64,000 bases of DNA from NCBI GenBank assembly GCA_964636255.1, contig CAZWNW010000015.1, positions 760 to 64,759 on the forward strand, read 5' to 3'. Below the pieces are notes generated by a model. The model worked only from the letters and a program-made list of their open reading frames with translations. It was not told where the DNA came from and searched no databases. Within the stretch, counting starts at the first letter, position 1, and every line of letters starts with the position of its first letter. The DNA comes from an uncultured Bacteriovoracaceae bacterium. Its GTDB lineage: Bacteria; Bdellovibrionota; UBA2428. A program made the translations under genes and the position numbers. This document shows, one piece after another, positions 29,665-50,936 of the stretch.

Positions 29665-29985
29665 CTAATTTTGAGCTGTAGTTTGGCCGTTCGTTGGATT
29701 GAGTTCAGCGGCAATCAGAGTTCGGATCATCGAATGCACATCGCCTAAAGTACGGATTTCTTTCAGACGGTCACCATCGACGCGAAGATCAAGTTTTTCT
29801 TCTAGGTGCACCAACATATCAACCGCGTCCAAGCTATCAAGCTCGAGGTCCTGGAAAACAGTGGCTTCTGGAAGGAGCTTTTCTTTGGGAATCTCGAATC
29901 CCGTATGAAATACGTCGTTGATTTCTTCGATCAAGAGCTGAGGATTGTTGAAAAGCGAGGCCAGTTTTTCTTTTTGCGTATCCAT
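29665..29985 (-). CDS. acyl carrier protein
   Basis: DLELDSLDAVDMLVHLEE contains the phosphopantetheine Ser motif DSL. Confidence 0.7.
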   Translation of the reverse strand: MDTQKEKLASLFNNPQLLIEEINDVFHTGFEIPKEKLLPEATVFQDLELDSLDAVDMLVHLEEKLDLRVDGDRLKEIRTLGDVHSMIRTLIAAELNPTNGQTTAQN

Positions 29986-32728: not shown

Positions 32729-33498
32729 GTGGGAAAGAGGCCACCATTAATGCTGAGCGTGTGCCCAGTGACATATGAGGCGGCGGGTGAACAGAGGAAA
32801 TCGATGCAGGCTGCGACTTCGTCGGCTGTTCCAAAGCGCCCCATAGGAATACGTTTTTTAAAGTCTTCGAGTTGAGGAATATTTTGGATCATTTCAGTTT
32901 CGATCAAACCAGGAGCTACCGCATTCACGCGCACATTGCGGGGCCCTAGTTCCATGGCCAGAGTTTTGGTCATCGCGATCAGGCCCGCCTTGCTCGCGGC
33001 ATAATTAATCTGCCCAGGATTGCCGGTTTGCCCAGCAAGAGACGCGACATTGACGATGGCACCCTTGCGGGCGCGCATCATTTTCCGCGCAGCCCACTTC
33101 AGCAAGACAAAGGGCCCGTGAAGATTCGTGCGCACGACGCGATCAAAAGATTCCAGAGACATCAATCCCGCTAGTGTGTCTTCGTGAATGCCGGCGTTGT
33201 TGACAAGAACTTCAACGGAGCGACTGCCATGTTCCTTCCAAAAGCTCTCGATACGTTCTTCAATCTCTTCAGGTCGGCCCAGATCAGCTTGCCAAAGAAG
33301 GCCTTGACCGCCCCCATCACGAATTTCCTCGAGGACCTTTTCGGCCTTTCCCTGGTTCGAATTGTAATGGATCCAGATTTCATAACCTCGAGCAGCCAAT
33401 CTCCGGGCAGTAGCCGCGCCAATTCCCGAGGAGGCGCCCGTTACCAAGGCTATTGCGGAAGACGGGGTCGACATTAAGATGTAAGGTACTTGGCTCAT
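32725..33498 (-). CDS. 3-oxoacyl-ACP reductase (SDR, FabG-like)
   Basis: ALVTGASSGIGAATARRL, NNAG and YAASKAG are SDR signatures. Start possibly at the internal Met near 33474. Confidence 0.85.
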   Translation of the reverse strand: MSQVPYILMSTPSSAIALVTGASSGIGAATARRLAARGYEIWIHYNSNQGKAEKVLEEIRDGGGQGLLWQADLGRPEEIEERIESFWKEHGSRSVEVLVNNAGIHEDTLAGLMSLESFDRVVRTNLHGPFVLLKWAARKMMRARKGAIVNVASLAGQTGNPGQINYAASKAGLIAMTKTLAMELGPRNVRVNAVAPGLIETEMIQNIPQLEDFKKRIPMGRFGTADEVAACIDFLCSPAASYVTGHTLSINGGLFPT

Positions 33499-34298
33499 TT
33501 ATGAACGTCAAACCCGGAGCTTCTCTACGAAGTGAAACCTCGATTTTCTGGACGATTTATTTCTACATCAGCTTTCTATTTCTGGGCGCGTTCTATGCGA
33601 TGCCTATTGTTTTGCCCTTGGCGCTCTTGGCCCGTATTTTTCCGCGCTTTCGTCCTTTAGCCCATTGGGCTTTGAGTTGGGGAACGGGCTTGTTTTTGAA
33701 ACTTCAACCGTGGCTCAGGGTCGAATTTCGACGTCCGGCCGGAGCTCGAAGTCTTGGGCCGGGCCCCACGCTTTTTGTCGCGAATCATCGATCGATATTA
33801 GATGGCTTTTTAATGTTAACGCTGATCCCTGGAGTATCGATGCTTGCAAAACGAAGTCTCTTTAATTTGCCGATGCTGGGCATCATGATGCGGGCAACGG
33901 GCCAAATCCCTGCGGTAAAAGGGGATTTAAATAGTTTGCTGCGAGCCCGCGAAATCTGCGCGAAAAAATTAAATGGGGGCGGAAAGGTTCTTGTCTTTCC
34001 GGAGCTCACACGTTGCCCTCCGGGTCACCCGGCTTCCAAAGATTTTTCCTCTTTGCCGTTTACACTTGTCGGTGGAACCTCGTGTACTTTAGTTCCCATT
34101 GTGATTCATGGTTCAGATCGAGCGTGGTTTCCGGCGACCTCCAAAGTGGCCCGTCGTGCCCATGTGACGATTCAAGAGCTTGATCCGATAGTGATTACTG
34201 ACGCGGCTTCCAAGGATCTGGCACGGACTGCAAAAGAGAGTATCGATCGCGAATGGTTTTTGCGGGAAGCTTTCTCGGGTCGGGATCTGAATCAATGA
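33453..34298 (+). CDS. lysophospholipid (1-acyl-glycerol-3-phosphate) acyltransferase family protein
   Basis: VANHRSILD is the HX4D motif and FPELTR matches the FPEGTR motif. N-terminal TM segment. Start likely at the internal Met (near 33501 or 33600), because the listed ORF overlaps the divergent KR gene. Confidence 0.7.
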   Translation: MRKTGSTLRCKVLGSFMNVKPGASLRSETSIFWTIYFYISFLFLGAFYAMPIVLPLALLARIFPRFRPLAHWALSWGTGLFLKLQPWLRVEFRRPAGARSLGPGPTLFVANHRSILDGFLMLTLIPGVSMLAKRSLFNLPMLGIMMRATGQIPAVKGDLNSLLRAREICAKKLNGGGKVLVFPELTRCPPGHPASKDFSSLPFTLVGGTSCTLVPIVIHGSDRAWFPATSKVARRAHVTIQELDPIVITDAASKDLARTAKESIDREWFLREAFSGRDLNQ

Positions 34299-36337
34299 AA
34301 ATCAGACTTTGTATTTTAGTCCCCACCTACAACAATGCGGAAAGTATTCTTCAGGTTTGCTCGGAGTTGATCGAAAATACTGAGCTGCCCGTTCTCGTTG
34401 TGGACGACGGATCTTCGATTCCGGTCGAGACTCTGTTGGGCGAGGAAAAATTTCTCATAGCCCGGGCGAGTGGTCGACTTACGATTCTTTGTAACGACGA
34501 GAATCGTGGCAAAGGATTTAGTCTCGAGCGCGGATTTCGATGGTGCATCACTCAGGGCTACACGCACGCACTGGCTTTCGACGGCGATGGCCAACATCTG
34601 GTAAGTGAAATCCCTAAACTTTTGAACGAAGCACGAGAAAATCCCTGGGCTTTGATCGTCGGTAGTCGCAAATTCCAGGGACCGAGCGTGCCAGAGGTCA
34701 GTCGATTCGGCCGCAAATTTTCGAATTTTTGGGTGCGCTTTCAGACCGAAATGGGTGTGAGCGATTCGCAAAGTGGCCTGCGTGTTTATCCTCTCTTTTT
34801 CATTCAGCGCATGAATTTTTTCAGCAAGCGCTTTGACTTCGAGATCGAAGTTCTGGTGCGCTTGATGTGGCGGGGCGTGGCCATTCGCGATGTCGAGGTG
34901 GCTTGTTATTATCCACCCGCAGAAGAGCGCATCAGCCACTTTGATAAACTCTGGGACAATGTCCGTATTTCGCTTTTGAATACGGTTTTAGTCGTGGTGA
35001 GCTTGTTGCGCACCCGTCTTTCGCCCATTCCCGTGGGCGTTGCGGTAGCGCTTGGGGTATGGGTGGGAACGACGCCTTTTTTTGGTTTTCATGCTTTGAT
35101 CTGTGCCGGACTGTCGTTCGTCTTTCGTTTGAATTTCCTGATGCTTCTGTTGGGTTCGCAGATTTCCATTCCTCCAATCGCACCTTTTCTTTCGGTGGCT
35201 TCTATTGCGCTGGGTGAAAATCTTTTTGGACTTGCGGGCGAGTCTAAGATTCTTGGGATGGCGGGGGCCTGGTTGGCTGGTTCACTTGTCTTAGGGGCAA
35301 TTCTTGGGCTCTTGATTGGAGGACTCGTCAGCATCTTGCTGTATCGTGTGAAAAGTCAGCGCGCGAATTGGCAAGGCAAAACCCGCGGCGGGCGTTTCGG
35401 AAATGCCTTCATGAAATTTGTGGCGCAAAAAGTCGGACTTCGCGTCGCCTATTTCTTTCTTTATTTTATTGTTCCGTATTTTTATTTTTTTTCGCCATCC
35501 GGCACTCGCGCTTCGAATCACTACTGGAAGCAGACACGACCGGAAGTCGGTTTTTGGAAACGACAGTGGCTTGTGCTTTGTCATTACATGACTTTCGCCA
35601 AGACACTCCTCGATCGAATTCTTCAGAGCGGACATGAAAATTCTCTTTACTATTATCCCTCCCAAGGTGGGGAATTGCTACACGAAGCTTTGGATCGGGG
35701 CGAGGGAATTGTTTTGATCGGTTCACATGTGGGGAATTGGCATCTGGCTCTAACGGAACTTGCTCGCAGACGACGGGATCAGTCGTTGGTTTCACTTGAG
35801 TATCAGTCCGAGGGTTTGACCTTTGATAAGGCAATCGGTGGTGATGCATCACCCTTAACGGAAGTTTTGTCTTCAAAAATGGCTCTACCACTTCTTGAAG
35901 CGCGTTCACTTTTGGAGCGGGGCCAGCCGCTGGGCATGATGATTGATCGGCCCGGAATCGGCACTGCAGAACTGATACCCTTTTTTGGGGGCTTGGCCGC
36001 TTTTGATGCAACACCTATACGTCTGGCGATGGCCTGTCGAAAGAGAATACTTTTCACATTTAGTTTTAAGGATGGTGACAGAACTTACCGCTCCTTCGCC
36101 TTCGAGGAAATTTTCCCGATTCCCGGAGAAGGAGTAGATCGCGAAACCCATCTTCACCAGGCTTTGTGCGTTTACGCGACACGCCTTGAAAGCATGCTTC
36201 GCCGTTATCCGGATCAGTGGTTTAATTTTTTCCCTTTTTGGTCTCGGCCCCCCTTTTCTCCGCTGGATGCAGCGATGGCAGATTCAGAGGTGCCCGTGGA
36301 GAGGCGAAAAGTCTCCGAAGCCAGTGCCAAATTGTGA
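34295..36337 (+). CDS. fusion protein: GT2 glycosyltransferase + multi-TM region + LpxL/HtrB-like lipid acyltransferase
   Basis: N-terminal CILVPTYNNAES...VVDDGS...DGDGQH is GT-A/GT2. The middle hydrophobic block has several TM segments. C-terminal GSHVGNWHL resembles the HxxNWE motif of lauroyl/myristoyl acyltransferases. ATGA overlap with the upstream gene. Track ORF starts at 34253. Confidence 0.6.
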   Translation: MKIRLCILVPTYNNAESILQVCSELIENTELPVLVVDDGSSIPVETLLGEEKFLIARASGRLTILCNDENRGKGFSLERGFRWCITQGYTHALAFDGDGQHLVSEIPKLLNEARENPWALIVGSRKFQGPSVPEVSRFGRKFSNFWVRFQTEMGVSDSQSGLRVYPLFFIQRMNFFSKRFDFEIEVLVRLMWRGVAIRDVEVACYYPPAEERISHFDKLWDNVRISLLNTVLVVVSLLRTRLSPIPVGVAVALGVWVGTTPFFGFHALICAGLSFVFRLNFLMLLLGSQISIPPIAPFLSVASIALGENLFGLAGESKILGMAGAWLAGSLVLGAILGLLIGGLVSILLYRVKSQRANWQGKTRGGRFGNAFMKFVAQKVGLRVAYFFLYFIVPYFYFFSPSGTRASNHYWKQTRPEVGFWKRQWLVLCHYMTFAKTLLDRILQSGHENSLYYYPSQGGELLHEALDRGEGIVLIGSHVGNWHLALTELARRRRDQSLVSLEYQSEGLTFDKAIGGDASPLTEVLSSKMALPLLEARSLLERGQPLGMMIDRPGIGTAELIPFFGGLAAFDATPIRLAMACRKRILFTFSFKDGDRTYRSFAFEEIFPIPGEGVDRETHLHQALCVYATRLESMLRRYPDQWFNFFPFWSRPPFSPLDAAMADSEVPVERRKVSEASAKL

Positions 36338-36363
36338 AGCGTCGCATTAGATTCGAGAGATGA

Positions 36364-36882
36364 GTGTCAAGTCACTTGCCGGAAATCCTTTCCCGGTGCA
36401 GCCTAATGGGCATGAAGCTTATCTCGCTAAAAATATTTTCAATTTTAGTTTTAAGTTGCTTAGTTTTTTCCTGTCGCGCCAAACAAGCGAAGGTCGCTCC
36501 GATGGTGAAGACAGATATCGACCTTTCACAATTGAAGCTGCCTCACAATGCAGGACTCAATGATGGGAATCTTGGTATGTTTAGTGGAGGCAGCCTGTCT
36601 ACCTTGGTGAAAACCACCGAAGGCCCCTATGTTCTTCAGTTGGAGGCTCGTGCAGATCTCTTTCGCGGCAAAGGCCCGATCGTCGATGTGACGGTCAATG
36701 GTCGTTCCGAGGGACAGCTTGAAGTCGTTTCCACGACTTTCAAAACCTATGATCTAAAGATCTCGCATCTCAGGGCCGGTACCCACGAAATTGTCATACA
36801 CTTCACGAACGATCAATACGATGAAGCGACCAAAGAAGACCGCAATCTCTATCTGAAACGCATTACCTATTGGCGGCAATAA
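36364..36882 (+). CDS. lipoprotein, unknown function
   Basis: Internal Met gives MGMKLISLKIFSILVLSCLVFSC (lipobox). Likely start near 36406. Confidence 0.4.
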   Translation: MSSHLPEILSRCSLMGMKLISLKIFSILVLSCLVFSCRAKQAKVAPMVKTDIDLSQLKLPHNAGLNDGNLGMFSGGSLSTLVKTTEGPYVLQLEARADLFRGKGPIVDVTVNGRSEGQLEVVSTTFKTYDLKISHLRAGTHEIVIHFTNDQYDEATKEDRNLYLKRITYWRQ

Positions 36883-36898
36883 TTTTGCTGACTGCAGT

Positions 36899-37657
36899 TT
36901 AGTAGAAAAGACGAAGTCGACCGAATAAGCCCGTTTCTGAATATTCACCGGAGAGTCCTTCAGTAAATTCAATTTCCTTCGATCGATATCCGAATTCACC
37001 GCGAAGACTGCCGACCTCCAGAAAAGCCGATGCGAAATAGCTCGATCCGCCAAAAGCCCGATCTTGGAAGCGGGTTTCCTGCTTTAGAAGTTTTTTGTAT
37101 TCACCCCGAAGGCCTAGCCATTGCGCGAGATAAACTTGAAGTTCGGGTCCTATGGAAAATCCTGTGTAGTAATCGCGCGGACCCGTGGGGTGTTTCAAGT
37201 TGTTGTATTCGTAACCCACACGAAGAATTAAATTGGTGTCTTGAATATTGCCACCGAAAAGTCGAAATTGCGCGTCGACTTCAATCATCTGGTTGTTAAT
37301 GTCACTTGCCTCTGCGTTCGGAAGCCAACTCGAAGCATCTTCGTATCGCAGACGAAGACCGGCTCGCATCAGATAATAATCAATTTCAAAACCTTGACGA
37401 TAGGGACTCAGATCCCACGAAAATGTGAAATCCATGGGTAATTTATTCGTGTGTTGCATCAACCAACGATCTTGGGCCGCCATCTTTTCCTTCGTACGAA
37501 GCCAAGAATCCAGAGTCCATCGCGATTGCCTCCGTTCCCTTTGTCTCTCTGGAAAAAACACAATCGCGATTGGACTAGAGTCTTGTCCCCGAGCCGGAAG
37601 CGAAAGAATGCCGAGAAGAACTACTGCTGGTAGGTAGCGCAATTGTCTAAATAACAT
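36899..37657 (-). CDS. putative outer-membrane beta-barrel protein
   Basis: Signal peptide MLFRQLRYLPAVVLLGILSLPARG, alternating strands and terminal ...RLRLFY. Confidence 0.4.
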   Translation of the reverse strand: MLFRQLRYLPAVVLLGILSLPARGQDSSPIAIVFFPERQRERRQSRWTLDSWLRTKEKMAAQDRWLMQHTNKLPMDFTFSWDLSPYRQGFEIDYYLMRAGLRLRYEDASSWLPNAEASDINNQMIEVDAQFRLFGGNIQDTNLILRVGYEYNNLKHPTGPRDYYTGFSIGPELQVYLAQWLGLRGEYKKLLKQETRFQDRAFGGSSYFASAFLEVGSLRGEFGYRSKEIEFTEGLSGEYSETGLFGRLRLFY

Positions 37658-37799
37658 TGCCTTAGTCTATGTCAGGATGCTTTTGAATGACACTTCATTC
37701 CCTATCTTCACTTCTTTTTAACAGAAAAAGAATGCGATCTTCACTGGGGCTCTAGCACTCGAATTTATTATAATTATTGGGGAAGGGCGAAGCATCACG

Positions 37800-40538
37800 A
37801 TGGAAGGTTTCTGTAGTTTTAAATGCGTTCGCTCGGTCCAGCTTTTTCTAGGCATTATGCTCTTGGCGGCTTGTAAGCCGATCCTGCAGACGAAATCGAT
37901 CCGAACAGAAATCTCTGAACCGCCAACAGCTAGCCTCCATGTTGTCGATGACTCACTAAGCGAGGGTCCCTTGGTGGATGCGGGGCTCTTACGACTCAGT
38001 CGAAGTGGAAATCTCGATCAAAGCCTCAAGGTCAATATGACTTACTTGGGAACGGCAGTGGCGAATAGTGATTACAAGTCCCTCTCGTCGTCGATCGAAA
38101 TACCGGCAGGTCTCTCGTCGGTGGAAATTGTCATCGAGCCTATCAGTGATGGGAACTACAAGGGCGACCGTAGCCTGGAAGTGAGCATCTCATCCGGAGA
38201 AGATTATCTCTTGGGTGACTCAATTTCGGCGCTACTGATTATTTCAGACTCCGATGCAGAAGGCGGGGGCGGTGACAATTTCGAGCCGGGGACCATCACG
38301 GACTTTCGGGTTCAGGCTGATGGCTGGTTTGCTGAAATTGATATCGCCGGATTCAGCGTCGGCGGCACGGCCGACTATGGATTCCAAGACGACAATGATC
38401 CGGACACGGTCGACAATGATGTCACTAATGCAAAAATGGTCCTGAACGTTAGCTCCGAAGGTTTTAATGCGGCGGGTGTACTAGGGACCGTCAGTCGAAA
38501 TGTTTTTGGTGTGAAAACAATCCGGAAGCCCTTCCCTGAAAATACGATGCAAGATCGGAGTGTTTTGGACGAGCGAGTTCAGAATGGCAAATTAACAGTC
38601 AAAGTTGCTTTGAGTGATTTCATATATCGCGACGATCGAGACGGAGGCGTTGGAACTTCGGGTCAGAATCTAAGATTGAGTCTTCCAGCGGGATGGTACA
38701 CGGACGATGGACCCGGAGGCAGTGGTCTGCAAAGTCGCGCGCTCTCAAATGCGGTGGTGAAAAATTTTTCGACTCTTCAATATCCTAAAGTCATTGGCCG
38801 ATGGGCTTGGCCGGCCTGGGAACGGAGCGCGAATAATTATCAGGTGGAGCTGCTTCCGATTCATCGTTTCGCCCGGAATGCTCGACCTGTGGTCGCGGTC
38901 ATCATCAGCGCAAATGATCAAAGCGGCAATAATCTTTCGCTGACTGTAAACGAAATGAATAAGTCGGCCCGCAGTGGAGACGCAAATGTCGTCCAGGTCT
39001 ATGCAGCAAGTATTCCGATGGCTGAATTTGACCAAGGCGAAGTTGTCGATATTAACTTCCGAGCCTATCCGTGGATCGGCGATGAAAGTTCTGTATTGGA
39101 TTCGCGCACAAATAAGGATGGTTTTTTACAACCTGACGAAAGGTTGGGACCCCTGCACGTTTTAAATGATCGAAGTGGTAGTTATGGCGCGGGTTATGCG
39201 CGCGTCTCAATGACGGGTGTCGATGCAAGTGGAATCGTGGCTGCTTCGGAGGCTGCTGCCGCAACTGCAAACGCTTTTCGGACGATTGGCGCGGCAGCAG
39301 TGGCAATCAAAGCTTTTCATCAAACTCAATTCAATCGAGACAGTGCCGCCGGCGGCGTGATTTTGCTGGAAGCTGGCGATCACGCATATCCGGGCAGCAT
39401 ACCTGCTGCCAGTCTTGGAATCACGATGGACAGCTGGCTAATCATCCGCCCAGCGGCGGGCGCCACACGTGAGCAAGCCAGGATTGTGTCGGCGACCGAG
39501 TCACTCAAAGCAAGTCGCGTGAAAATCGAAGGTCTCAATCTCGTGCTCAGCAGTGGGAGTATTCGTGGAAACCCAAGCACTGATGTTTTATGGTTGCATA
39601 ACAATTTGATCAATCCCGAAACGGAGCTTCCTTTTCTCTCGTGGAAAGTTGCCTACGCTACTCAAAACAGAATTTCTTCTGCCTTGGAAGATTTGGCCGC
39701 AAATTTCGGTGGCATCCGGGGTCCTTTTGCGTTGGTACGAGGTAACGATGCTGAAGCGTCGGTTGATACCCATTTTTATGCAGTTCTGGGAAATAAAAAC
39801 GTCAACGGACGACTCTTTGTTGAAAACGTCGTCAATTCTGCGAACCACCATCCTAGCCACAATTCGATCATGGCATTCAATACGAATTACGCTTTGCTCC
39901 ATACAACTTCGGTCGCAGAGAGCTCTGAAATGAGTGGAGTTGCCGTCATTCAAAATATTTTCGAACGCATAGGACCAAGTCCCTCGGGAGTTATGCAGGT
40001 CGCAGGCTCTGGAGGCAAGGGAGCCGCGTCGACTAACTTGATATTCTGGCACAACACTTTCGTGGGCGAACGCATCCAGTGGGGATATAGCTACAACGGG
40101 AATGTGGATGCCCCACTTAAAAAGCTCAATTGGGGTAGTAAGTTCAATATTTTCACAAAACAGGGAATCAAAACAGATACCTTCACAGATGCCGAAGGAC
40201 TTGTTGAAAACCACCTGGCCAACTGGGCGTTGGTTTACAACGTCGGCAGTGTAGGGAACAAATGTCTCAACAAAATATTCGATGGAGACTTTCACGGTCT
40301 TTATTCTCAATGGGGACCGGCTACAGGCTTCATAGAGCCTGGCTTTCTCAATGATCGCTCGAAAGACACGGGAACAGGTGAAGGTCAGGGTGATTATCGA
40401 TTGCAGGAAAGCTCGATGGCCATAAACCCCGTTAGCGCTCCCAATGCGGACGAATATCGAGTTTTGCCGTTTGATATTTTTGGGACTCCGCGCACCGGAT
40501 CGCCAGACTCTGGCGCTACGGAGTATGAATCTCCATAG
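37800..40538 (+). CDS. large (912 aa) lipoprotein with Calx-beta-like domain and beta-helix-like repeats
   Basis: LLAACK is a lipobox. LRLSRSGNLDQSLKVNMTYLGTAVANSDYKSLSSSIEIPAGLSSVEIVIEPISDGNYKGDRSLEV fits the Calx-beta pattern. The rest is Gly/Asn/Ser-rich. The antisense ORF 39588..40577 is judged spurious. Confidence 0.5.
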   Translation: MEGFCSFKCVRSVQLFLGIMLLAACKPILQTKSIRTEISEPPTASLHVVDDSLSEGPLVDAGLLRLSRSGNLDQSLKVNMTYLGTAVANSDYKSLSSSIEIPAGLSSVEIVIEPISDGNYKGDRSLEVSISSGEDYLLGDSISALLIISDSDAEGGGGDNFEPGTITDFRVQADGWFAEIDIAGFSVGGTADYGFQDDNDPDTVDNDVTNAKMVLNVSSEGFNAAGVLGTVSRNVFGVKTIRKPFPENTMQDRSVLDERVQNGKLTVKVALSDFIYRDDRDGGVGTSGQNLRLSLPAGWYTDDGPGGSGLQSRALSNAVVKNFSTLQYPKVIGRWAWPAWERSANNYQVELLPIHRFARNARPVVAVIISANDQSGNNLSLTVNEMNKSARSGDANVVQVYAASIPMAEFDQGEVVDINFRAYPWIGDESSVLDSRTNKDGFLQPDERLGPLHVLNDRSGSYGAGYARVSMTGVDASGIVAASEAAAATANAFRTIGAAAVAIKAFHQTQFNRDSAAGGVILLEAGDHAYPGSIPAASLGITMDSWLIIRPAAGATREQARIVSATESLKASRVKIEGLNLVLSSGSIRGNPSTDVLWLHNNLINPETELPFLSWKVAYATQNRISSALEDLAANFGGIRGPFALVRGNDAEASVDTHFYAVLGNKNVNGRLFVENVVNSANHHPSHNSIMAFNTNYALLHTTSVAESSEMSGVAVIQNIFERIGPSPSGVMQVAGSGGKGAASTNLIFWHNTFVGERIQWGYSYNGNVDAPLKKLNWGSKFNIFTKQGIKTDTFTDAEGLVENHLANWALVYNVGSVGNKCLNKIFDGDFHGLYSQWGPATGFIEPGFLNDRSKDTGTGEGQGDYRLQESSMAINPVSAPNADEYRVLPFDIFGTPRTGSPDSGATEYESP

Positions 40539-40626
40539 ATTATTAGTAAATAAATACAGTTTTATCTTTCGAATCAAATTCCTTCTTTTCTGGCAGAGGC
40601 TAAGAGGAATTTGCTAAGCTTCAGAT

Positions 40627-41184
40627 GTGGCAGATCTGGAAGCGGAAACATTTCTTTCGGTGCTGAACGGTGAAGAATGGGTCTTTTATGTCGCTCACTT
40701 AAGTGGGGGTAAGTGGCAGTTTTTTTCCAAGGACAAAGTGTTTTCGCGCGAGGGGATCGTGGTTGTTTCGCGTGATCAGCTGCTACAACTCGATTTACGC
40801 CTTCAGGAAATTGAAGATTTACCTGCCGGATGGCACACATGGCGCGACGATCCGGAGTCGGAATGGCGAAGAGCCAAAAGACCGGAGGGTCCAACATTTT
40901 TTTTCCGTTTCCGTCTGGCTGAGAAGCAAAGCTTAGAAGTATCCACCGCGGATCTTTGGATCATAGCCTCAGACTTGTCCGAGGCCCGCCAGCGTGGGCT
41001 CCAAATTTTCAAGAACATGGGTATTGTGGTCACCGATGAAATCGAAGCCCATGAAGTTCAAGCGATTGATTACGAAGAGGACGAAAAAGGATTAGATTTT
41101 TATCGCAAGGTTCAATTTGACGGCTATTTGTTCTTGGCCGGGAAAAAAACATCATCGGGATCGAAAGAAGCGATTTCCCACTAG
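40627..41184 (+). CDS. hypothetical protein
   Basis: 185-aa ORF with GTG start. No family recognised. Confidence 0.3.
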   Translation: MADLEAETFLSVLNGEEWVFYVAHLSGGKWQFFSKDKVFSREGIVVVSRDQLLQLDLRLQEIEDLPAGWHTWRDDPESEWRRAKRPEGPTFFFRFRLAEKQSLEVSTADLWIIASDLSEARQRGLQIFKNMGIVVTDEIEAHEVQAIDYEEDEKGLDFYRKVQFDGYLFLAGKKTSSGSKEAISH

Positions 41185-41912: not shown

Positions 41913-43537
41913 GGCAGATTTTTCCGTAGGCGATCTATTTCGCTTTTCGCAGTTTTTGCTTCGCGCGCATAGGCTGGAGGGCTCTGCAATGCCGACTCCC
42001 AAGCCCTAAGTGCCGCGCGAAGATCTTGGCTACAATTCTCGGCAACACGTCCCCGAAGAGCATGATAGGCATAACTATCGCGAAGGATTTCAAGTTTTTG
42101 TATTTCGGATTCTAGGTAGGCGCAGTCACTGCTACGGTTCAGAATTTGAATTCTCTTCTCCTCATCTTTGAGAAGCTGATAAGCCTTGGCATCGATTTTA
42201 TTATCTGCTGGAAGATTGCGCCCAAGCACGGGACGACGTTCCCGAAAAGAGCGCTCCAAATCATAACCCTCAAAGGCTCCGACCAGCGAAGGGCCCCGAC
42301 TGACATAAATTTGGAAATTTTCGCTGTCGTAGACCACTGCGTGTGTAGCAATCAGAGCATCGATTGCCTGGCGATTTCCTATTGGCAGGGACTTTCGTTC
42401 CGTACCGTGGCGGTCTCTGAGTATCGATAAAATTTGAAGTGTTTTTTCATGTGTTCCGGCCTTATCAGAGATTGCGTTTAGGAGTTCCTTTGCGCGTCCC
42501 TCGCGGTGAAGTGTTGTTAGTTCGCGTTGGCGATAGAGATTAACGGAGTCCTGATTCCACCGCGAGGAATTCAGGTGATTGGTCACAACACTTGCGCGGT
42601 TGGAACTAAGGACTTCGGTATTGAGCGGCGATTTCTCGACCCTGTAAAAACTAACGGAATGCCGATCCACGACAGAAAAAATATCCGTAATCAAAGTTGG
42701 ATGTTTGGAGAGAATGGCGACCGCCTCTTCCGCGTTCGTCGAAAATTGCAGGGCCTCCAGAAGAAGAAGTGTCGAGGGCCATGCCTTGAATGTGAATTCC
42801 GAACTTCCGGCCGCATTGATCGCGATAAAAACACCGTGTTCGTTCACTCCGGTGACGGCTCCCACCATTCCACCCCAAATGACCGATAAAAATGCCGAAC
42901 CCTTGTCGGGGAAGACCCACTTGAGAATTTTCTCTTCGTCGAAAATGCGTCCTGCTTCAAAGTCGAAGTTGCGGCCGACAATCCAGCCTTTATTAGTCGG
43001 CAAAGCCAGAACCGTACATGCCATAGTGGGATAACCCTGATCGACCATCAATTGCCCGATCTCGTGAATTCCGTGAAGGCCAATCTGACGTAAAAATGGA
43101 TCACCTAAAGAATTGAAATCCGTCGAAGCACTTTCCGCGATACCGGCCATCTCCTCTAACTGATGGTGGGGTATAAGTCCCGGAACATCTGTAAAAAGAG
43201 TCAGCGCAACGGCCTCTAAAAAAAGTTGGAGGGCCCGAGTTGGAAAAATTTTGTCCAATTGATCGTGCAATTCTTTCTCTTTTTTATGTAGAAGTTCACG
43301 AGTGAGCCGGCCGGCCTCGCGCCCGCGCGGATAGGCGCTCCCCTCCATGACCAGGCTATGCAATTGGCGTCCCATTGATGGATCACGCGGAAACCATTCC
43401 GCAGTCCCGATTAAAGCAGGGTCTTTATAATTCTCTGCTGCGTAATAGTGCCGGTGAAAGGTGTGCAAGCACCATAAAACCAAAAGAAGAAAGGCCGAGA
43501 AAAGAATTTTCATGATGGCCATAACTTTAAGCTTCAT
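41909..43537 (-). CDS. Ntn-hydrolase-like protein (C45 / acyl-CoA:6-APA acyltransferase-like), membrane-anchored
   Basis: N-terminal TM segment. Candidate nucleophile context GYPTMACTVLALPT. Size and pattern are loosely Ntn/C45-like. Low certainty. Confidence 0.35.
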   Translation of the reverse strand: MKLKVMAIMKILFSAFLLLVLWCLHTFHRHYYAAENYKDPALIGTAEWFPRDPSMGRQLHSLVMEGSAYPRGREAGRLTRELLHKKEKELHDQLDKIFPTRALQLFLEAVALTLFTDVPGLIPHHQLEEMAGIAESASTDFNSLGDPFLRQIGLHGIHEIGQLMVDQGYPTMACTVLALPTNKGWIVGRNFDFEAGRIFDEEKILKWVFPDKGSAFLSVIWGGMVGAVTGVNEHGVFIAINAAGSSEFTFKAWPSTLLLLEALQFSTNAEEAVAILSKHPTLITDIFSVVDRHSVSFYRVEKSPLNTEVLSSNRASVVTNHLNSSRWNQDSVNLYRQRELTTLHREGRAKELLNAISDKAGTHEKTLQILSILRDRHGTERKSLPIGNRQAIDALIATHAVVYDSENFQIYVSRGPSLVGAFEGYDLERSFRERRPVLGRNLPADNKIDAKAYQLLKDEEKRIQILNRSSDCAYLESEIQKLEILRDSYAYHALRGRVAENCSQDLRAALRAWESALQSPPAYAREAKTAKSEIDRLRKNLP

Positions 43538-45716
43538 TTTGACCTCGAAGCCGGAAAAATTTCGATTTCAGTAATGCTGGAACCGCGGTTGTCGCGCTCA
43601 GATAAGTCGCCAGAGATCCAAAGAAAAGTGTGATTCCAAGATGTTTCAGAACCGGATGCTCGCAGAATATCAAAGGTAGGAATCCGCAGACTGTAGTTGC
43701 TGCATTCAACAAGAGTGTCGTCTCTAGGTCCTGATCCCGCACGGCAATATCCCGTACCGCGGAATCCGTTGCGAATATTCCATAGTCCAGACTGAGGCCG
43801 AAAAGTAAAACGGCAGCCATCAGACTCACGAAACTAAAGGCTTCTCCCAGAAGAAGATGCGCCAGCAACGCCGCGCCAAGACCCGAAAGAAAAGGAAGAA
43901 AGCTGGTGAGGATGGGAAGCAGTCGTCTGTAATGGAAAGCAAGTATCAAGAAGTTCAGTATAAATACAAGCGGCAGGAGTCGCGACAAATCCTGACTCAA
44001 GATTCGCGGAAAAACAGACACGACTTCCCGCAAACTTTGAAAAGCAGGCAAAGTATCTCGAACGATCGAAATCCCTTCTTGGGAATTTCCGCCAGGAAAA
44101 ACAATCAAACTGATTGCCTGATTCTTGGAAAGTAAAGTGCCTGTTAGAAGTGGTAATTCTTTGATCACTTCTTCCAAACTAAGAGAAGTATCTTGAAAAA
44201 ATACGGATGCGCATGCTGACTGCAAAAAGGGATCGAATAGATTTTTCAATTGCGGCGAGAGCCGAGGCAAGAGTTCCTGGCATCCCGCCTTCCAACTTTG
44301 CAAATTGCTTTGAAAGTCGCGCGCGTTGCCGATCAAGTCTCCCAAGGTTTGGGCCTCCGCTCCCACCGTGCCTGCGATACTGTGGATTTTTGAACTTTGA
44401 AGAAGGGCATCTTCCGCCGACTCATGAATCCAGTAAAACGGCATTTGATTCGGCAGATGCTTCCACAGTGAATTTTCAGCTTCTTTTTGATTCGAGCTTT
44501 TGAATTCGAACTGACCAAGCGAAAGATCGACACGGCTGAGCGGCAAAAGAAGCGTGCAAAGCGCAAAAATTATCGAGAGAGTCGCAAAGCCACGAAAGCG
44601 GGGAACGAGGCTAAAGGCTTTCATCTTGAATGCGGAAGCTGAAAAGTAAAAGAGAGAGCGATAAAGTAGGTAACTACAGATGAGACCCAGACTCGCGAAA
44701 ATCATCATTTCTGAAAGAAGGGGGATTTTGCTGGCAGAAAGGCACAGGAGGGCCGTAAGTGTCGTGAGTAGTCCGATGCGATTGCTGCGCCAGACCTTTT
44801 GTTGATTGCTTGAAAATGCGGCATGAATTCCATAGTCAAGCCCCAGGCCGATGAGTCCTCCTCCGAAAGATAGAGTCAGTGCATGAACGCTGCCTTGAAA
44901 TAAAATCAGCAGGCCGGCGGCCAAAACTACGGAAAAGAGCGGAATCAGCAAAAGTAGAAAATAAGCCCCGCGCCTCCGGCACCAGAGAAGCAAGGCCAAG
45001 ATGAAAAAGACAGGTAGCGAGAGATAACTAACAAGACTGAGATCAGATATCACCTGGGCTTGGTTGCTTCTGGCGGCATTGTGCGGACCGATGAGAGCCA
45101 CCTGAAGTTGCAAAGACTCGGCTTCACGCTCCCAACTTGAAATGAGCTCGTGGAACCTCGACGCGTCGCTTGCGTTCTGGGAGAAGAGAATGGGTATCAA
45201 AAGATCACGGCTGCCGGGTAAAAGCGTCATGCCACCTTCACTGTCGAATCTGTCTTGAATACGTCGGGCGAAGTTTTCCCAGGATCGTAGTGGATCATGG
45301 CGCATGATCTCAAACTCCGAAGATCGGCTATCAAGAAAGGCCATGGCTAAATTCGCGCGCAGCTTCGCGGACAGCTTCTCGACGCCGGGGAAGTTTTCAC
45401 GAAGGGGAAGGGCTTTGACCCACTCTTTCACCAGTGGCAAATAGTCCGAAGCTTCCTGCAGGCACTCGATACGCTGGACATGGGGGCTGGGCGCGGCCCG
45501 CATGCGTCGGCAAAGTTCTTGGCTTTTCTCGCTGATCCCGTCTTGAGCTCCGTTTTTGATCCACAACGTGTTCCACCAGAAGGCCGGATAGGCGGTGGGA
45601 GCTAGGACTTCTTGGCGCAATTTATCTGGTAAAAAGCGGGAGACATCGCTTTCAATCCAGGCCGCCGCTGCTTTTTCGCTCAGAAAAAAACTCAGCAATA
45701 GAAAAAAAAGTTTCAT
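43527..45716 (-). CDS. MMPL/RND-superfamily exporter
   Basis: 729 aa with two blocks of ~6 TM helices each preceded by large soluble loops. Internal duplication pattern of MMPL transporters. Overlaps flanking genes (operon). Confidence 0.65.
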   Translation of the reverse strand: MKLFFLLLSFFLSEKAAAAWIESDVSRFLPDKLRQEVLAPTAYPAFWWNTLWIKNGAQDGISEKSQELCRRMRAAPSPHVQRIECLQEASDYLPLVKEWVKALPLRENFPGVEKLSAKLRANLAMAFLDSRSSEFEIMRHDPLRSWENFARRIQDRFDSEGGMTLLPGSRDLLIPILFSQNASDASRFHELISSWEREAESLQLQVALIGPHNAARSNQAQVISDLSLVSYLSLPVFFILALLLWCRRRGAYFLLLLIPLFSVVLAAGLLILFQGSVHALTLSFGGGLIGLGLDYGIHAAFSSNQQKVWRSNRIGLLTTLTALLCLSASKIPLLSEMMIFASLGLICSYLLYRSLFYFSASAFKMKAFSLVPRFRGFATLSIIFALCTLLLPLSRVDLSLGQFEFKSSNQKEAENSLWKHLPNQMPFYWIHESAEDALLQSSKIHSIAGTVGAEAQTLGDLIGNARDFQSNLQSWKAGCQELLPRLSPQLKNLFDPFLQSACASVFFQDTSLSLEEVIKELPLLTGTLLSKNQAISLIVFPGGNSQEGISIVRDTLPAFQSLREVVSVFPRILSQDLSRLLPLVFILNFLILAFHYRRLLPILTSFLPFLSGLGAALLAHLLLGEAFSFVSLMAAVLLFGLSLDYGIFATDSAVRDIAVRDQDLETTLLLNAATTVCGFLPLIFCEHPVLKHLGITLFFGSLATYLSATTAVPALLKSKFFRLRGQNEA

Positions 45717-46354
45717 GGGTGACTAGCATCCGGCTTTTTCAAAATAGTTTTTGAAAAAGAAAGACGCATTTGGTCTCCGCTCACTTCGTGAATGACCACT
45801 TCTTTGATCCAGGCGTTTCGGTCCCAATGGATCTCCAAGCTCGTAAATGGCAGAGAAGAATCTGTCTGCGGCTCAAGCGTTACAAAATTCTTTCCGCCCG
45901 ATTTAATGCGAAAATTTCGCAAACTCTCGTCAGCCTGCATAAGAAAGAGGTTTCGCAAGTGTTGGATGGCAAAAGTCGAGGTTAGTTTCTCGGGAAGTTT
46001 CTTCAAATTCAATACGCGTTCCGTTCCGCCATCTTCGGACATGCGGATTTTATCGGCCTCCAGTTGCCATCGGCTCCGGGCGGGTTTTAGCGTCTCCCAA
46101 ATTAGAATTCCTCGATCTCGATCAATAGTGACATTGCCTTCAGATTCTATGCTGATTTTAAAAGCCTTGATCTCCTTTTGCATGCGGAACTGCGAGTCTA
46201 TTCGTGCCACTTTTGAGTGGGATTCCACCCATTTGCGAAAGGAATCTTCAAATTTTGAGGGGCCCCCGGATGGTGGGATTTCAGCCTTGAGGGGTGCATT
46301 CAGAAGGCTGATAAAGAGGCAGAGAAGCAGAAAGAGGCGTTGCTGATTGATCAC
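45713..46354 (-). CDS. LolA-like periplasmic lipoprotein-carrier family protein
   Basis: Signal peptide MINQQRLFLLLCLFISLLNAPLKA. ~190-aa mature size. 4-nt overlap with the MMPL gene. Assignment largely by context. Confidence 0.5.
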   Translation of the reverse strand: MINQQRLFLLLCLFISLLNAPLKAEIPPSGGPSKFEDSFRKWVESHSKVARIDSQFRMQKEIKAFKISIESEGNVTIDRDRGILIWETLKPARSRWQLEADKIRMSEDGGTERVLNLKKLPEKLTSTFAIQHLRNLFLMQADESLRNFRIKSGGKNFVTLEPQTDSSLPFTSLEIHWDRNAWIKEVVIHEVSGDQMRLSFSKTILKKPDASHP

Positions 46355-46379
46355 GCCGATAGTAAATTATTTTTTTACA

Positions 46380-46670
46380 ATGAATCAAGGCGCGACCCTA
46401 AAAAAAGCTGAAGGGGATCTCTTTCAGGAAATCGTTGAAACTCTCTTGTCGTCGCTTAACTTGAAGCATATTGATCGCTCCCGCTTGGGTCCTGAGACCC
46501 TTTTAGGAAAGGGCGGAATGGATCTAGACTCCATTGAGATGCTCGAAATTGTCATCGCTTTTGAACAAAAATACGGCCTTAAGGTCAGTGGACCCGAAGA
46601 AGGTCGAGAAAAATTCCACACCTTGGGCAGTCTTCAGCACTTCATTGAAAGCGCCAGGGATCAGGCCTGA
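46380..46670 (+). CDS. acyl carrier protein
   Basis: GMDLDSIEMLEIVIAFEQ has the DSI phosphopantetheine site. Track ORF from 46347 would overlap divergent LolA, so the internal Met (MNQGATLKK) is preferred. Confidence 0.65.
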   Translation: MNQGATLKKAEGDLFQEIVETLLSSLNLKHIDRSRLGPETLLGKGGMDLDSIEMLEIVIAFEQKYGLKVSGPEEGREKFHTLGSLQHFIESARDQA

Positions 46671-48592: not shown

Positions 48593-49243
48593 ATGAGTTT
48601 CTTGGATTTTAGTTTTCGTAGTTCCGCATTGAAGATGCACCGGCTGCCGGAATCTGAAAGGCCCCGTATTTATTTCAGCTTTGATGACGGACCCCGCGCG
48701 GGGAGTACGGAGCAGGTTTTAGACCTCTTCGATGAATTAGCTTTGACTGCTACATTTTTTGTCATCACCGAGCGGGTCCGGAAAAATCGCGCGCTTTTCG
48801 AGCGAACCGTTAAATCGGGACATGCAATTGGAGATCACAGCCTCGACCACAACTATTGGAACTATCTATCCTCTCGCGCCCAAGTCCAGAATTGGATCAA
48901 AGCCAGTTGGGAGGAACTTTCCGAGATGCTGGGGCGCCGCCCCGTTGGTTTTCGACCACCGGCGGGAGTGGTGACACCGCCCCTTCTTGCCAGCTTGGAA
49001 GAGCTTGGTATTCCGCTGATTTTATGGACCCATCGTTACTTTGATACCCGAAAGCCTCCGACCGAGATGGTGATGGCTCGCTCACTTCGACAGGCGCGGG
49101 ATGGAGATTTGCTTTTACTTCACGACGCTCTGCTGCCAGATCAGCAACGGCAGCTTTGTCAGACGCTTCGTCCAGTCCTGATTGAGCTTCGGGCTCGCGA
49201 CCTCTTGCCAAGTGCCATAGCGTCACTGAGAGGCGACACTTAA
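48593..49243 (+). CDS. polysaccharide deacetylase (NodB homology) family protein
   Basis: YFSFDDGP, GHAIGDHSLDHNY and LLLHD motifs. Confidence 0.65.
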   Translation: MSFLDFSFRSSALKMHRLPESERPRIYFSFDDGPRAGSTEQVLDLFDELALTATFFVITERVRKNRALFERTVKSGHAIGDHSLDHNYWNYLSSRAQVQNWIKASWEELSEMLGRRPVGFRPPAGVVTPPLLASLEELGIPLILWTHRYFDTRKPPTEMVMARSLRQARDGDLLLLHDALLPDQQRQLCQTLRPVLIELRARDLLPSAIASLRGDT

Positions 49244-50901: not shown

Positions 50902-50936
50902 GAGCAGGCCGCAAGTTGCGGCCTGCTCTTAGTTTC
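50902..50936. terminator. bidirectional rho-independent terminator
   Basis: 13-bp perfect inverted repeat GAGCAGGCCGCAA/TTGCGGCCTGCTC followed by TTAGTTTCT. Lies between convergent genes 50417..50893(+) and elbB(-). Confidence 0.65.

What the first reader, a model, noticed from the sequence alone, without database searches (positions are those of the whole stretch)
34295..36337. Single polypeptide fusing a GT2 glycosyltransferase, a multi-TM domain and an LpxL/HtrB-like acyltransferase
In described aryl-polyene clusters the glycosyltransferase and the lipid A-type acyltransferase are separate genes. Here one 680-aa ORF carries DDGS/DGDGQH GT-A motifs, a polytopic membrane middle and a C-terminal SHVGNWHL (HxxNWE-like) acyltransferase motif. 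It follows directly the PlsC-type LPLAT (HX4D, FPELTR) with an ATGA overlap. This suggests a coupled glycosyl/acyl transfer step anchoring the pigment to a lipid.
Basis: seen in the sequence. Interest (0 to 1): 0.55.

Follow-up and report, generated by a model that had tools for sequence, protein, structure and literature searches.

The report
ApeJ-type pigment-anchoring glycosyl/acyltransferase fusion
The 680-residue protein really does join a sugar-transferring domain, a membrane block and a lipid-A-type acyl-transferring domain, but this is the local version of ApeJ, an already described fused enzyme of aryl-polyene pigment clusters, so it is an ordinary member of a known family.

Summary
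Window 34295-36337 (+) is one uninterrupted 680-aa ORF with GT2 (res 6-141), DUF2062 (236-356) and Lip_A_acyltrans (456-649), all above Pfam gathering scores. It overlaps the upstream PlsC-type acyltransferase by ATGA.

It is not a frameshift artefact. More than 100 independent database proteins of 630-734 aa share the architecture, including one in a complete Bdellovibrio isolate genome.

The novelty premise is wrong. In the best-studied aryl-polyene clusters (E. coli CFT073, Xenorhabdus doucetiae) the two activities already sit in one gene, apeJ, annotated "glycosyltransferase/acyltransferase". The window protein aligns to E. coli ApeJ over both catalytic domains (E 4e-40 and 2e-13).

The genes are separate in flexirubin-type clusters of Flavobacteriia, whose gene set this cluster resembles. 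The real difference from ApeJ is the ~125-aa, ~4-helix DUF2062 block between the domains. In split versions that block stays with the GT2 half.

The GT2 domain resembles lipid-phosphate glycosyltransferases (DPMS, ArnC, GtrB). The C-terminal domain resembles LpxM and PatA, and the residues aligning to PatA's catalytic pair (H478, D551) are invariant. Verdict: new member of a known kind, low interest.

The parts
34295..36337 (+). Single ORF of 680 aa: an ApeJ-type bifunctional glycosyl/acyltransferase with an inserted DUF2062 membrane module
34295..34990 (+). GT-A / GT2 domain (res 1-232), of the lipid-phosphate glycosyltransferase type. Motifs: DDGS (res 37-40, nt 34403-34414), DGDGQH (res 96-101, nt 34580-34597), DSQSGLR (res 157-163, nt 34763-34783).
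   Evidence: Pfam PF00535. 38% identity to E. coli ApeJ res 8-230, E 4e-40. PDB profile hits: DPMS 5mlz 1e-10, ArnC 9hwj 2.5e-10, GtrB 5ekp 5e-7. Motif residues are invariant in 26 sequences.
34991..35374 (+). DUF2062 polytopic membrane module (res 233-360), about 4 membrane helices, absent from E. coli ApeJ
   Evidence: Pfam PF09835, 51.3 bits. Hydropathy. AF2 helices 244-259, 266-277, 281-291, 296-311, 319-354. Invariant G254, G258, P261, G264, N280, S291 and near-invariant H266, R278, P293.
35375..36259 (+). LpxL/LpxM/PatA-type acyltransferase domain (res 361-655). Motifs: S-H478-VGNW482-H483 (nt 35723-35743) and D551-R552-P (nt 35945-35953).
   Evidence: Pfam PF03279. 25% identity to ApeJ res 258-552, E 2e-13. 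LpxM 5kn7 8e-8 and PatA 5f2t 2.4e-5 by profile. Foldseek: LpxM 2.7e-11, PatA TM-score 0.70. H478, W482 and D551 align to PatA H126, W130 and E200.
34295..34298 (+). ATGA start/stop overlap with the upstream LPLAT gene (translational coupling is inferred)
   Evidence: The LPLAT lies immediately upstream on the same strand in all Bdellovibrionota relatives with enough flank.
33453..34298 (+). PlsC-type lysophospholipid acyltransferase, the counterpart of ApeD
   Evidence: PF01553. 33% identity to E. coli ApeD around HX4D and FPExTR, E 2e-12.
29665..29985 (-). Acyl carrier protein (ApeF-like), a likely carrier of one of the acyl donors
   Evidence: PF00550. tblastn with ApeF, E 6e-15.
46347..46670 (+). 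Second acyl carrier protein (ApeE-like)
   Evidence: tblastn with ApeE, E 6e-10.
43527..45716 (-). MMPL/RND-type transporter, the counterpart of ApeM (export of the finished lipid)
   Evidence: PF03176. Syntenic in relatives.
48593..49243 (+). Polysaccharide deacetylase family protein in the same cluster. It may act on the sugar added by the GT2 domain (inference only).
   Evidence: PF01522, 94 bits. A 'polysaccharide deacetylase family protein' is also listed in the Chryseobacterium flexirubin-type cluster.

Best explanation
The gene encodes the ApeJ-equivalent enzyme of an aryl-polyene / flexirubin-type pigment cluster in a Bdellovibrionota-like bacterium. It is an inner-membrane protein whose two catalytic domains probably both face the cytoplasm.

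Step 1 is inferred from the X. doucetiae ApeJ model and from the GT2 subfamily. The N-terminal GT-A domain takes a nucleotide-activated hexose or N-acetylhexosamine and transfers it to the phosphate of a membrane lipid. That lipid is probably the phosphatidic-acid-like product of the LPLAT encoded immediately upstream. The product is a lipid-phosphate-sugar.

Step 2 is also inferred. The C-terminal LpxL/PatA-type domain uses H478 as general base, backed by D551, and W482 stacks on the sugar ring. It transfers the ACP-bound aryl-polyene acyl chain to a sugar hydroxyl. This anchors the chromophore to a glycophospholipid, which the MMPL/LolA-like system then exports.

The DUF2062 block of about four helices between the domains belongs functionally to the glycosyltransferase half. 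It is the membrane-embedded part that holds the enzyme at the bilayer and probably helps bind the lipid-phosphate acceptor, as the transmembrane domains of DPMS, GtrB and ArnC do.

Shown here: the three-domain architecture, homology to ApeJ over both catalytic domains, conservation of the catalytic residues, conserved fusion and conserved cluster synteny. Inferred: the substrates, the order of the steps, the topology and the role of DUF2062.
For: - **Architecture:** three Pfam domains above gathering score.
- **Homology to ApeJ:** both catalytic halves align to E. coli CFT073 ApeJ (E 4e-40 and 2e-13). This gene is the only ApeJ match in the window, and counterparts of ApeB, D, E, F, I, O, Q and R are present.
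- **Published genetics:** deletion of apeJ in X. doucetiae accumulates the acyl-cFA-glycerol-3-phosphate intermediate. The final lipid carries GalNAc on the phosphate, with the aryl polyene esterified to the sugar 6-position. E. coli apeD and apeJ mutants accumulate late, unattached intermediates.
- **GT2 subfamily:** the best solved relatives are the lipid-phosphate glycosyltransferases DPMS, ArnC and GtrB, and NCBIfam hits include AglJ and the polyprenyl-phospho-GalNAc synthase PpgS. This fits a sugar-1-phosphate-lipid product.
- **Acyltransferase half:** LpxM and PatA are the best matches by sequence profile and by fold. PatA acylates the 6-OH of a sugar on a glycophospholipid with H126 as base and E200 as relay. 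These residues align with the invariant H478 and D551.
- **Fusion is real:** the top 120 homologs of 630-734 aa include 116 listed with all three Pfam domains and 4 without PF03279. There are 660 cluster representatives at E<=1e-30. A fused three-domain ORF occurs in the complete genome of Bdellovibrio sp. HCB185ZH (L013).
- **Synteny:** the pigment cluster is conserved around the gene in Bdellovibrionota loci, and a KS gene is present in 57 of 80 loci. The LPLAT is always directly upstream.
- **DUF2062 goes with GT2:** in the two split loci scanned with Pfam the GT2 ORF carries DUF2062 and the acyltransferase ORF does not (L067, L069), and in most other split loci the GT2 ORF is about 380-430 aa, long enough to include it.
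Against: - No biochemistry exists for this protein, or for any ApeJ in vitro. The ApeJ model rests on knockouts and product structure from a preprint.
- The HX4D/E acid position is His483 here. That is unique among 124 homologs, and the equivalent E127 of LpxM is labelled a catalytic residue in PDB entry 5knk. Reduced or altered acyltransferase activity therefore cannot be excluded.
- The closest solved GT2 relatives use polyprenyl phosphates, not phosphatidic acid, as acceptor.
- The cluster is of the flexirubin type (TAL, CrtI-like oxidoreductase, AAT-like protein, deacetylase). Its end product is unknown and may differ from the Xenorhabdus lipid.
- The Lip_A_acyltrans Pfam score is modest (26.8 bits against a cut-off of 22.3).
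Confidence: 0.75

Rival explanations
1. The fusion is an assembly or sequencing frameshift artefact that joins a GT2-DUF2062 gene to a separate LpxL-like gene.
For: Split versions, with two adjacent ORFs in different frames, do exist in other phyla, for example Phycisphaerales L067. A few MAG loci (L015, L059) show truncated ORFs.
Against: The junction region (res 350-370, W359, R364, G365, G366, G369) is conserved in frame in 26 aligned homologs. All 120 best database hits are 630-734 aa, and 116 of them are listed with all three domains. These come from many independent assemblies, including a complete isolate genome (L013). E. coli ApeJ is itself a fusion of the two catalytic halves.
Confidence: 0.01
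2. The protein is a genuine fusion, but its acyltransferase half is catalytically weakened or re-purposed because the HX4D/E acid is replaced by His483. It might act as a binding or scaffold domain, or use a different acyl donor.
For: His at residue 483 is unique among 124 homologs, and 110 of them have D or E. The equivalent E127 of LpxM is called a catalytic residue in PDB entry 5knk.
Against: Fourteen of 124 homologs carry a residue other than Asp or Glu at that position (S, G, T, N, H, A, Y, F), while the rest of the domain stays conserved. In PatA the relay residue is E200 rather than D131, and its counterpart D551 is invariant, as are H478, G480 and W482. The domain shows no other sign of decay.
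Confidence: 0.1
3. The GT2-DUF2062 part works like its closest solved relatives. It charges a polyprenyl phosphate carrier with a sugar for use on the periplasmic side, and the LpxL-like domain acylates a different substrate. The two domains would then not act consecutively on one lipid.
For: The best solved relatives (DPMS, ArnC, GtrB) all use polyprenyl phosphates. A PF01522 deacetylase in the cluster recalls the ArnC/ArnD pair. The two halves are separate, even distant, genes in Flavobacteriia.
Against: The X. doucetiae product has the sugar directly on the glycerolipid phosphate, and the apeJ mutant accumulates the phosphatidic-acid-type intermediate. Repeated independent fusion or adjacency of the two halves and the tight coupling to the LPLAT argue for consecutive steps on one lipid.
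Confidence: 0.1
4. The gene serves general envelope biogenesis, such as lipid A or LPS modification, and merely sits next to the pigment cluster.
For: Family names include lipid A biosynthesis acyltransferase and 'glycosyltransferase involved in cell wall biosynthesis'.
Against: All NCBIfam equivalog scores are far below their cut-offs, for example lauroyl acyltransferase at 23 bits against 363. Synteny with KS, CLF, ACP, TAL, FabG and MMPL genes is conserved across Bdellovibrionota, and KS genes neighbour the gene in 57 of 80 loci from many phyla. The gene is homologous to ApeJ.
Confidence: 0.04

Closest known systems
ApeJ of the E. coli CFT073 (c1194) and Xenorhabdus doucetiae aryl-polyene clusters
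   Same: A single polypeptide with an N-terminal GT2 domain and a C-terminal LpxL/PatA-like acyltransferase domain. Both halves are homologous to the window protein (38% and 25% identity). It is encoded in a type II PKS-like pigment cluster with an LPLAT (ApeD), two ACPs, KS/CLF, FabG, a dehydratase, a methyltransferase and an MMPL transporter. Its proposed role is to add a sugar to the lipid phosphate and then acylate the sugar with the aryl polyene.
   Different: ApeJ is 558 aa, with only about 26 residues and no DUF2062 between the domains. ApeJ keeps the HX4E acid (SHLGDVE), whereas the window protein has His. apeJ is not adjacent to apeD in E. coli, whereas here the two genes overlap by ATGA. 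The window cluster also has flexirubin-type genes (TAL, CrtI-like, AAT-like, deacetylase) that E. coli lacks.
GT2-DUF2062 protein plus separate 'lipid A biosynthesis acyltransferase' of flexirubin-type clusters in Bacteroidota
   Same: The same three modules and a very similar accessory gene set: aromatic amino acid lyase, AMP-ligase, NAD(P)/FAD oxidoreductase, AAT-like protein, polysaccharide deacetylase, FabG, KS/CLF and ACP. DUF2062 follows the GT2 domain (L069).
   Different: There the acyltransferase is a separate gene, about 8-9.5 kb away in Flavobacteriia. Here all three modules are in one ORF.
PatA (phosphatidylinositol mannoside acyltransferase, PDB 5f2t/5oce/7ojt) and LpxM (PDB 5kn7)
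   Same: The fold of the C-terminal domain (Foldseek E 2.7e-11 to 2e-9, TM-score 0.62-0.70 on the target). The conserved His, Trp and acidic relay residues align. PatA acylates a sugar 6-OH on a glycophospholipid, which is chemically analogous to the proposed step.
   Different: Sequence identity is only about 15-17%. These are stand-alone enzymes that use acyl-CoA (PatA) or acyl-ACP (LpxM) with ordinary fatty acids. They have no GT2 or DUF2062 module.
Lipid-phosphate GT2 enzymes DPMS (5mlz), ArnC (9hwj, 9bhc, 8vxh) and GtrB (5ekp)
   Same: A GT-A domain with a DXD motif followed by interface and transmembrane helices. They are the best solved sequence relatives of the N-terminal half, and they make sugar-phosphate-lipid linkages.
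   Different: Their acceptors are polyprenyl phosphates. Their membrane domains are not classified as DUF2062. None carries a fused acyltransferase.

Membership tests
ApeJ-type bifunctional glycosyl/acyltransferase of aryl-polyene clusters | N-terminal GT2 (GT-A) domain homologous to that of ApeJ | tested here: met
   BLASTP against E. coli CFT073 ApeJ: 38% identity over 231 residues, E 4e-40. PF00535 is found in both proteins.
ApeJ-type bifunctional glycosyl/acyltransferase of aryl-polyene clusters | C-terminal LpxL-like acyltransferase domain on the same polypeptide, homologous to that of ApeJ | tested here: met
   25% identity over 314 columns, E 2e-13, window res 366-652 against ApeJ res 258-552. 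PF03279 is above gathering score in the window protein.
ApeJ-type bifunctional glycosyl/acyltransferase of aryl-polyene clusters | Encoded within an APE-type type II PKS/FAS-like cluster with ApeD-like LPLAT, ACPs, KS/CLF, KR, DH and MMPL transporter | tested here: met
   Pfam. tblastn of E. coli Ape proteins finds counterparts of ApeB, D, E, F, I, J, O, Q and R in the window. MMPL is found by Pfam.
ApeJ-type bifunctional glycosyl/acyltransferase of aryl-polyene clusters | Same domain architecture as the characterised members (GT2 directly followed by the acyltransferase) | tested here: not met
   The window protein has a ~125-aa DUF2062 membrane block between the domains, whereas ApeJ has ~26 residues. 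This is an architectural variant and does not argue against homology.
ApeJ-type bifunctional glycosyl/acyltransferase of aryl-polyene clusters | Function: adds a sugar to the lipid phosphate and acylates it with the aryl polyene (a knockout accumulates the phosphatidic-acid-type intermediate) | not testable with these tools
   Known only from X. doucetiae and E. coli genetics.
Pfam Lip_A_acyltrans (LpxL/LpxM/PatA) family | Profile match above the gathering score and the LpxM/PatA fold | tested here: met
   26.8 bits against GA 22.3. Profile hits to LpxM 8e-8 and PatA 2.4e-5. Foldseek: LpxM 2.7e-11, PatA TM-score 0.70.
Pfam Lip_A_acyltrans (LpxL/LpxM/PatA) family | Catalytic His of the HX4(D/E) motif plus an acidic partner | tested here: inconclusive
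   H478 is invariant, and D551 (PatA E200 position) is invariant. The motif's own acid position is His483, whereas it is D or E in 110 of 124 homologs.
Lipid A secondary acyltransferase LpxL/LpxM proper (equivalog) | Score above the NCBIfam equivalog cut-off | tested here: not met
   Best scores are 23.0 bits against a cut-off of 363 (NF006438) and 21.7 against 248 (NF006270). The protein is a family relative, not LpxL itself.
GT2 lipid-phosphate glycosyltransferases (DPM1/GtrB/ArnC-like) | GT-A domain with DXD motif, with best similarity to this subgroup | tested here: met
   D96-x-D98 is invariant. Profile hits: DPMS 1e-10, ArnC 2.5e-10 to 7e-10, GtrB 5e-7. NCBIfam: AglJ 1.7e-13 and PpgS 7e-12, both far below their equivalog cut-offs.
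GT2 lipid-phosphate glycosyltransferases (DPM1/GtrB/ArnC-like) | Acceptor is a lipid monophosphate | not testable with these tools
   Inferred from the sugar-1-phosphate-glycerol linkage in the X. doucetiae lipid.

The most novel reading that the evidence does not exclude
The DUF2062 block may be more than a passive anchor. It could be a functional lipid-handling module. It carries conserved polar and helix-breaking residues inside the membrane (N280 and S291 invariant, H266 and R278 near-invariant, a run of Gly/Pro at 254-264, and short helices 266-277 and 281-291 that look re-entrant). Such a module might bind the phosphate head group of the acceptor and pass the glycosylated lipid directly from the GT2 site to the acyltransferase site. 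If so, the three-domain protein would be a self-contained membrane assembly line, and the widespread orphan family DUF2062 would receive its first functional assignment.
Probability: 0.2. Interest if true: 0.45.

Novelty: new member of a known kind. Interest (0 to 1): 0.2.

Why it matters
It matters little as a discovery. The GT2-acyltransferase fusion in aryl-polyene clusters is already in the literature as ApeJ, and the three-domain form is common in databases.

The modest value is comparative. The same three modules occur in four arrangements:
- fused with DUF2062;
- fused without DUF2062;
- split into adjacent genes;
- split into distant genes.

This repeated linkage supports the idea that the glycosyl and acyl transfers are consecutive steps on one lipid. 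It also ties DUF2062 to the glycosyltransferase half.

The window additionally shows that predatory-bacteria-like lineages (Bdellovibrionota) carry a flexirubin-type gene set combined with an ApeJ-type fused anchoring enzyme. Bdellovibrio sp. HCB185ZH could serve as a cultivable system to test ApeJ chemistry and the role of DUF2062.

Tried and rejected
- **ApeG as the DUF2062 counterpart.** I asked whether DUF2062 corresponds to the separate small membrane protein ApeG (COG4648) of the E. coli cluster. The hhalign probability is 0.07%, so the idea is rejected.
- **Promoters and terminators.** I looked for internal promoter-like or terminator-like signals that might indicate two transcription units or a recent join. 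Counts were at or below shuffled expectation.
- **Alternative start at 34253 (694 aa).** Rejected, because all homologs start in register with the 34295 Met.
- **Literature on DUF2062.** Only 7 papers mention it. Most concern the Brucella effector BspA or are gene lists, and none gives a function.
- **Source organism.** The exact protein is in NCBI on a 65,991-bp contig but carries no name. Its nearest relatives are 40-48% identical Bdellovibrionales, Pseudobdellovibrionaceae and Oligoflexia MAG proteins, so the phylum-level placement is an inference.
- **Active-site geometry.** The whole-model Foldseek search was dominated by the two catalytic domains and gave no informative match for the DUF2062 block.


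Full report
**Observation.** Window 34295-36337 (+) is a single open reading frame of 680 codons with no internal stop. Pfam finds three domains, all above their gathering scores:
- Glycos_transf_2 at residues 6-141 (45.2 bits);
- DUF2062 at residues 236-356 (51.3 bits);
- Lip_A_acyltrans at residues 456-649 (26.8 bits, cut-off 22.3).

A hydropathy scan gives hydrophobic segments at about 225-243, 245-263, 268-286, 289-307, 331-349 and 380-398. The start codon overlaps the stop of the upstream gene as ATGA, with ATG at 34295-34297 and TGA at 34296-34298. The upstream gene 33453-34298 is a PF01553 PlsC-type acyltransferase. A longer alternative start at 34253 is unlikely, because all 25 aligned homologs begin in register with the 34295 Met. 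The identical NCBI protein is also 680 aa. 'SHVGNWH' has His, not Asp or Glu, at the acid position of the HX4D/E motif.

**Is the fusion an artefact?** No. The word-indexed search found 1388 relatives at E<=1e-5. All of the best 120 are 630-734 aa and 40-48% identical; 116 are listed with all three Pfam domains and the other four lack only PF03279. They come from many independent assemblies. An exhaustive search of 50%-identity representatives gave 660 proteins at E<=1e-30, many matching residues 1-655 in a single stretch. The junction between the membrane block and the acyltransferase is conserved in frame, with W359, R364, G365, G366 and G369 invariant. A complete isolate genome, Bdellovibrio sp. 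HCB185ZH, carries the same three-domain ORF (L013).

**What it is.** The surrounding genes form an aryl-polyene / flexirubin-type cluster:
- O-methyltransferase, PPTase, AMP-ligase and aromatic amino acid lyase;
- KS/CLF pairs, two ACPs, an ApeI-like dehydratase and FabG;
- a CrtI-like oxidoreductase, the LPLAT and an AAT-like protein;
- an MMPL transporter and a polysaccharide deacetylase.

The published gene table of the E. coli CFT073 cluster lists apeJ (c1194) as one gene, 'glycosyltransferase / acyltransferase' (PMC8253772). I fetched that cluster and compared the proteins. The window protein aligns with ApeJ (558 aa) over the GT2 domain (38% identity, E 4e-40). It also aligns over the C-terminal domain (25% identity, E 2e-13, window 366-652 against ApeJ 258-552). 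In a tblastn of all E. coli Ape proteins against the window, this gene is the only ApeJ match. ApeB, D, E, F, I, O, Q and R also have counterparts. The upstream LPLAT matches ApeD around HX4D and FPExTR.

**How it most likely works.** For X. doucetiae the full pigment lipid is known. It has a glycerol-phosphate-GalNAc backbone, with a conjugated fatty acyl at sn-2 and the aryl polyene esterified to the sugar 6-position. The apeJ mutant accumulates the acyl-cFA-glycerol-3-phosphate intermediate. The authors therefore propose that ApeJ first adds the sugar to the phosphate and then acylates the sugar with the ACP-bound chromophore, after ApeD has placed the sn-2 chain. My analyses fit that model domain by domain.

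- **GT2 half.** A profile of the family finds the lipid-phosphate glycosyltransferases as the best solved relatives: DPMS (1e-10), ArnC (2.5e-10) and GtrB (5e-7). The GT-A motifs D37-D38, D96-x-D98-x-Q-H and D157-S-Q-x-G-x-R are invariant.
- **Acyltransferase half.** It matches LpxM and PatA by profile (8e-8 and 2.4e-5) and by fold on an AlphaFold model of mean pLDDT 78.9 (LpxM E 2.7e-11; PatA TM-score about 0.70).
- **Catalytic residues.** PatA acylates the 6-OH of a mannose on a glycophospholipid. His126 is the general base, Glu200 the relay, and Trp130 packs on the sugar (PMC8519569). In the pairwise alignment these correspond to H478, D551 and W482, all invariant in the family.
- **Topology.** This is inferred. 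Basic residues flank the block on both sides (R238-T-R240 before it, and RVKSQR...KTRGGR after it). Four membrane passages lie between them, which places both catalytic domains on the cytoplasmic face.

**What is different from ApeJ.** E. coli ApeJ has only about 26 residues between the two domains and no DUF2062. The window protein has a block of about 125 residues, modelled as helices 244-259, 266-277, 281-291, 296-311 and 319-354. I classified 80 loci from species-representative genomes, out of at least 586 matches. Four arrangements appear:
- **Fused with a 120-150-aa membrane spacer:** Bdellovibrionota and Myxococcota. Geobacterales have a longer spacer of 225-241 aa.
- **Fused without a spacer:** an Aminicenantes MAG (L080), like E. 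coli.
- **Two adjacent ORFs:** GT2-DUF2062 of about 400 aa followed by the acyltransferase. This occurs in Desulfuromonadales, the PVC group, Nitrospirota, Calditrichota and Omnitrophota. It was confirmed for Phycisphaerales L067.
- **Two distant genes:** Flavobacteriia, confirmed for Gelidibacter L069.

In both split loci scanned with Pfam (L067, L069) DUF2062 stays with the GT2 half, and most other split GT2 ORFs are about 380-430 aa, long enough to hold it. This argues that DUF2062 is the membrane part of the glycosyltransferase. A Chryseobacterium flexirubin-type cluster likewise lists a 'DUF2062 domain-containing protein' and a 'lipid A biosynthesis acyltransferase' as separate genes. Its accessory genes are otherwise the same as in the window. 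It is false for the E. coli and Xenorhabdus reference clusters.

**Caveat on His483.** Among 124 homologs with a recognisable motif, the residue after the invariant Trp is Asp in 103 and Glu in 7. It is another residue in 14, and His occurs only in the window protein. The PDB title of 5knk calls the equivalent E127 of LpxM a catalytic residue, whereas in PatA the relay is E200. The E200 counterpart D551 is invariant, and about 11% of otherwise well-conserved family members lack the motif acid. I therefore consider the domain probably active, but this is not shown.

**Context.** In Bdellovibrionota relatives the whole cluster is syntenic. The LPLAT lies directly upstream on the same strand. KS genes neighbour the gene in 57 of 80 loci across phyla. 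This ties the family to polyketide-like pigment clusters and not to lipid A synthesis. All NCBIfam LpxL, PatA and PpgS equivalog scores are far below their cut-offs.

**Verdict.** The protein is a new, uncharacterised member of the ApeJ kind. It carries a DUF2062 membrane insert that is common in databases but not discussed in the literature I could search. Interest is low. The only open thread of some value is the role of DUF2062.

Noticed in passing
window 36338-41908: About 5.5 kb separates the fusion gene from the AAT-like gene (41909-43537, -), against about 0.7 kb in most Bdellovibrionota relatives. The extra ORFs are a CBM60-like 172-aa protein (36364-36882, +), an OMP beta-barrel-like 252-aa protein (36899-37657, -; below the Pfam cut-off) and a 912-aa protein with no Pfam or NCBIfam hit (37800-40538, +). 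None of the three has a homolog in any of the 80 related loci, so this looks like a lineage-specific insertion inside the cluster.
   Followed up: partly
window 48593-49243 (+) and 54545-55504 (-): Two polysaccharide deacetylase (PF01522) genes. The first lies directly after the KS/CLF pair of the cluster. Together with the ArnC-like GT2 domain this recalls the ArnC/ArnD pair. It suggests that the sugar added here may be de-N-acetylated, unlike the GalNAc of the Xenorhabdus lipid. The E. coli ape cluster has no such gene.
   Followed up: no
window 35741-35743 (codon 483): His occupies the acid position of the HX4D/E motif. This is unique among 124 homologs (Asp 103, Glu 7, others 14).
   Followed up: partly
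window 21435-22523 (+): The O-methyltransferase is 45% identical to E. coli ApeB over 350 residues (E 8e-105). That is much closer than any other cluster gene is to its E. coli counterpart (25-41%).
   Followed up: no
L027, L028, L030 (Geobacteraceae / Desulfuromusa / Desulfuromonadaceae MAGs): These fused three-domain proteins have a much longer spacer (225-241 aa) between the GT2 and acyltransferase domains than the 120-150 aa seen in Bdellovibrionota.
   Followed up: no
L015 1212-2009 and L059 9887-10627: In these two MAG loci the GT2-containing ORF is truncated (266 and 247 aa). The acyltransferase part resumes 388 and 901 nt further on. These may be frameshifts or pseudogenes in those assemblies.
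   Followed up: no
L032 9860-12022: This 721-aa fused homolog from an uncultured delta proteobacterium MAG has a 130-aa, 2-TM spacer that Pfam does not recognise as DUF2062 at E<=0.001. The membrane insert may therefore be more diverse than one family.
   Followed up: no
window 49245-49643, 50929-51603, 52775-53914: A Coq4-like 132-aa ORF, a DJ-1/PfpI-family protein and an RCC1-repeat protein lie just downstream of the cluster. Their relation to the pigment pathway is unknown.
   Followed up: no
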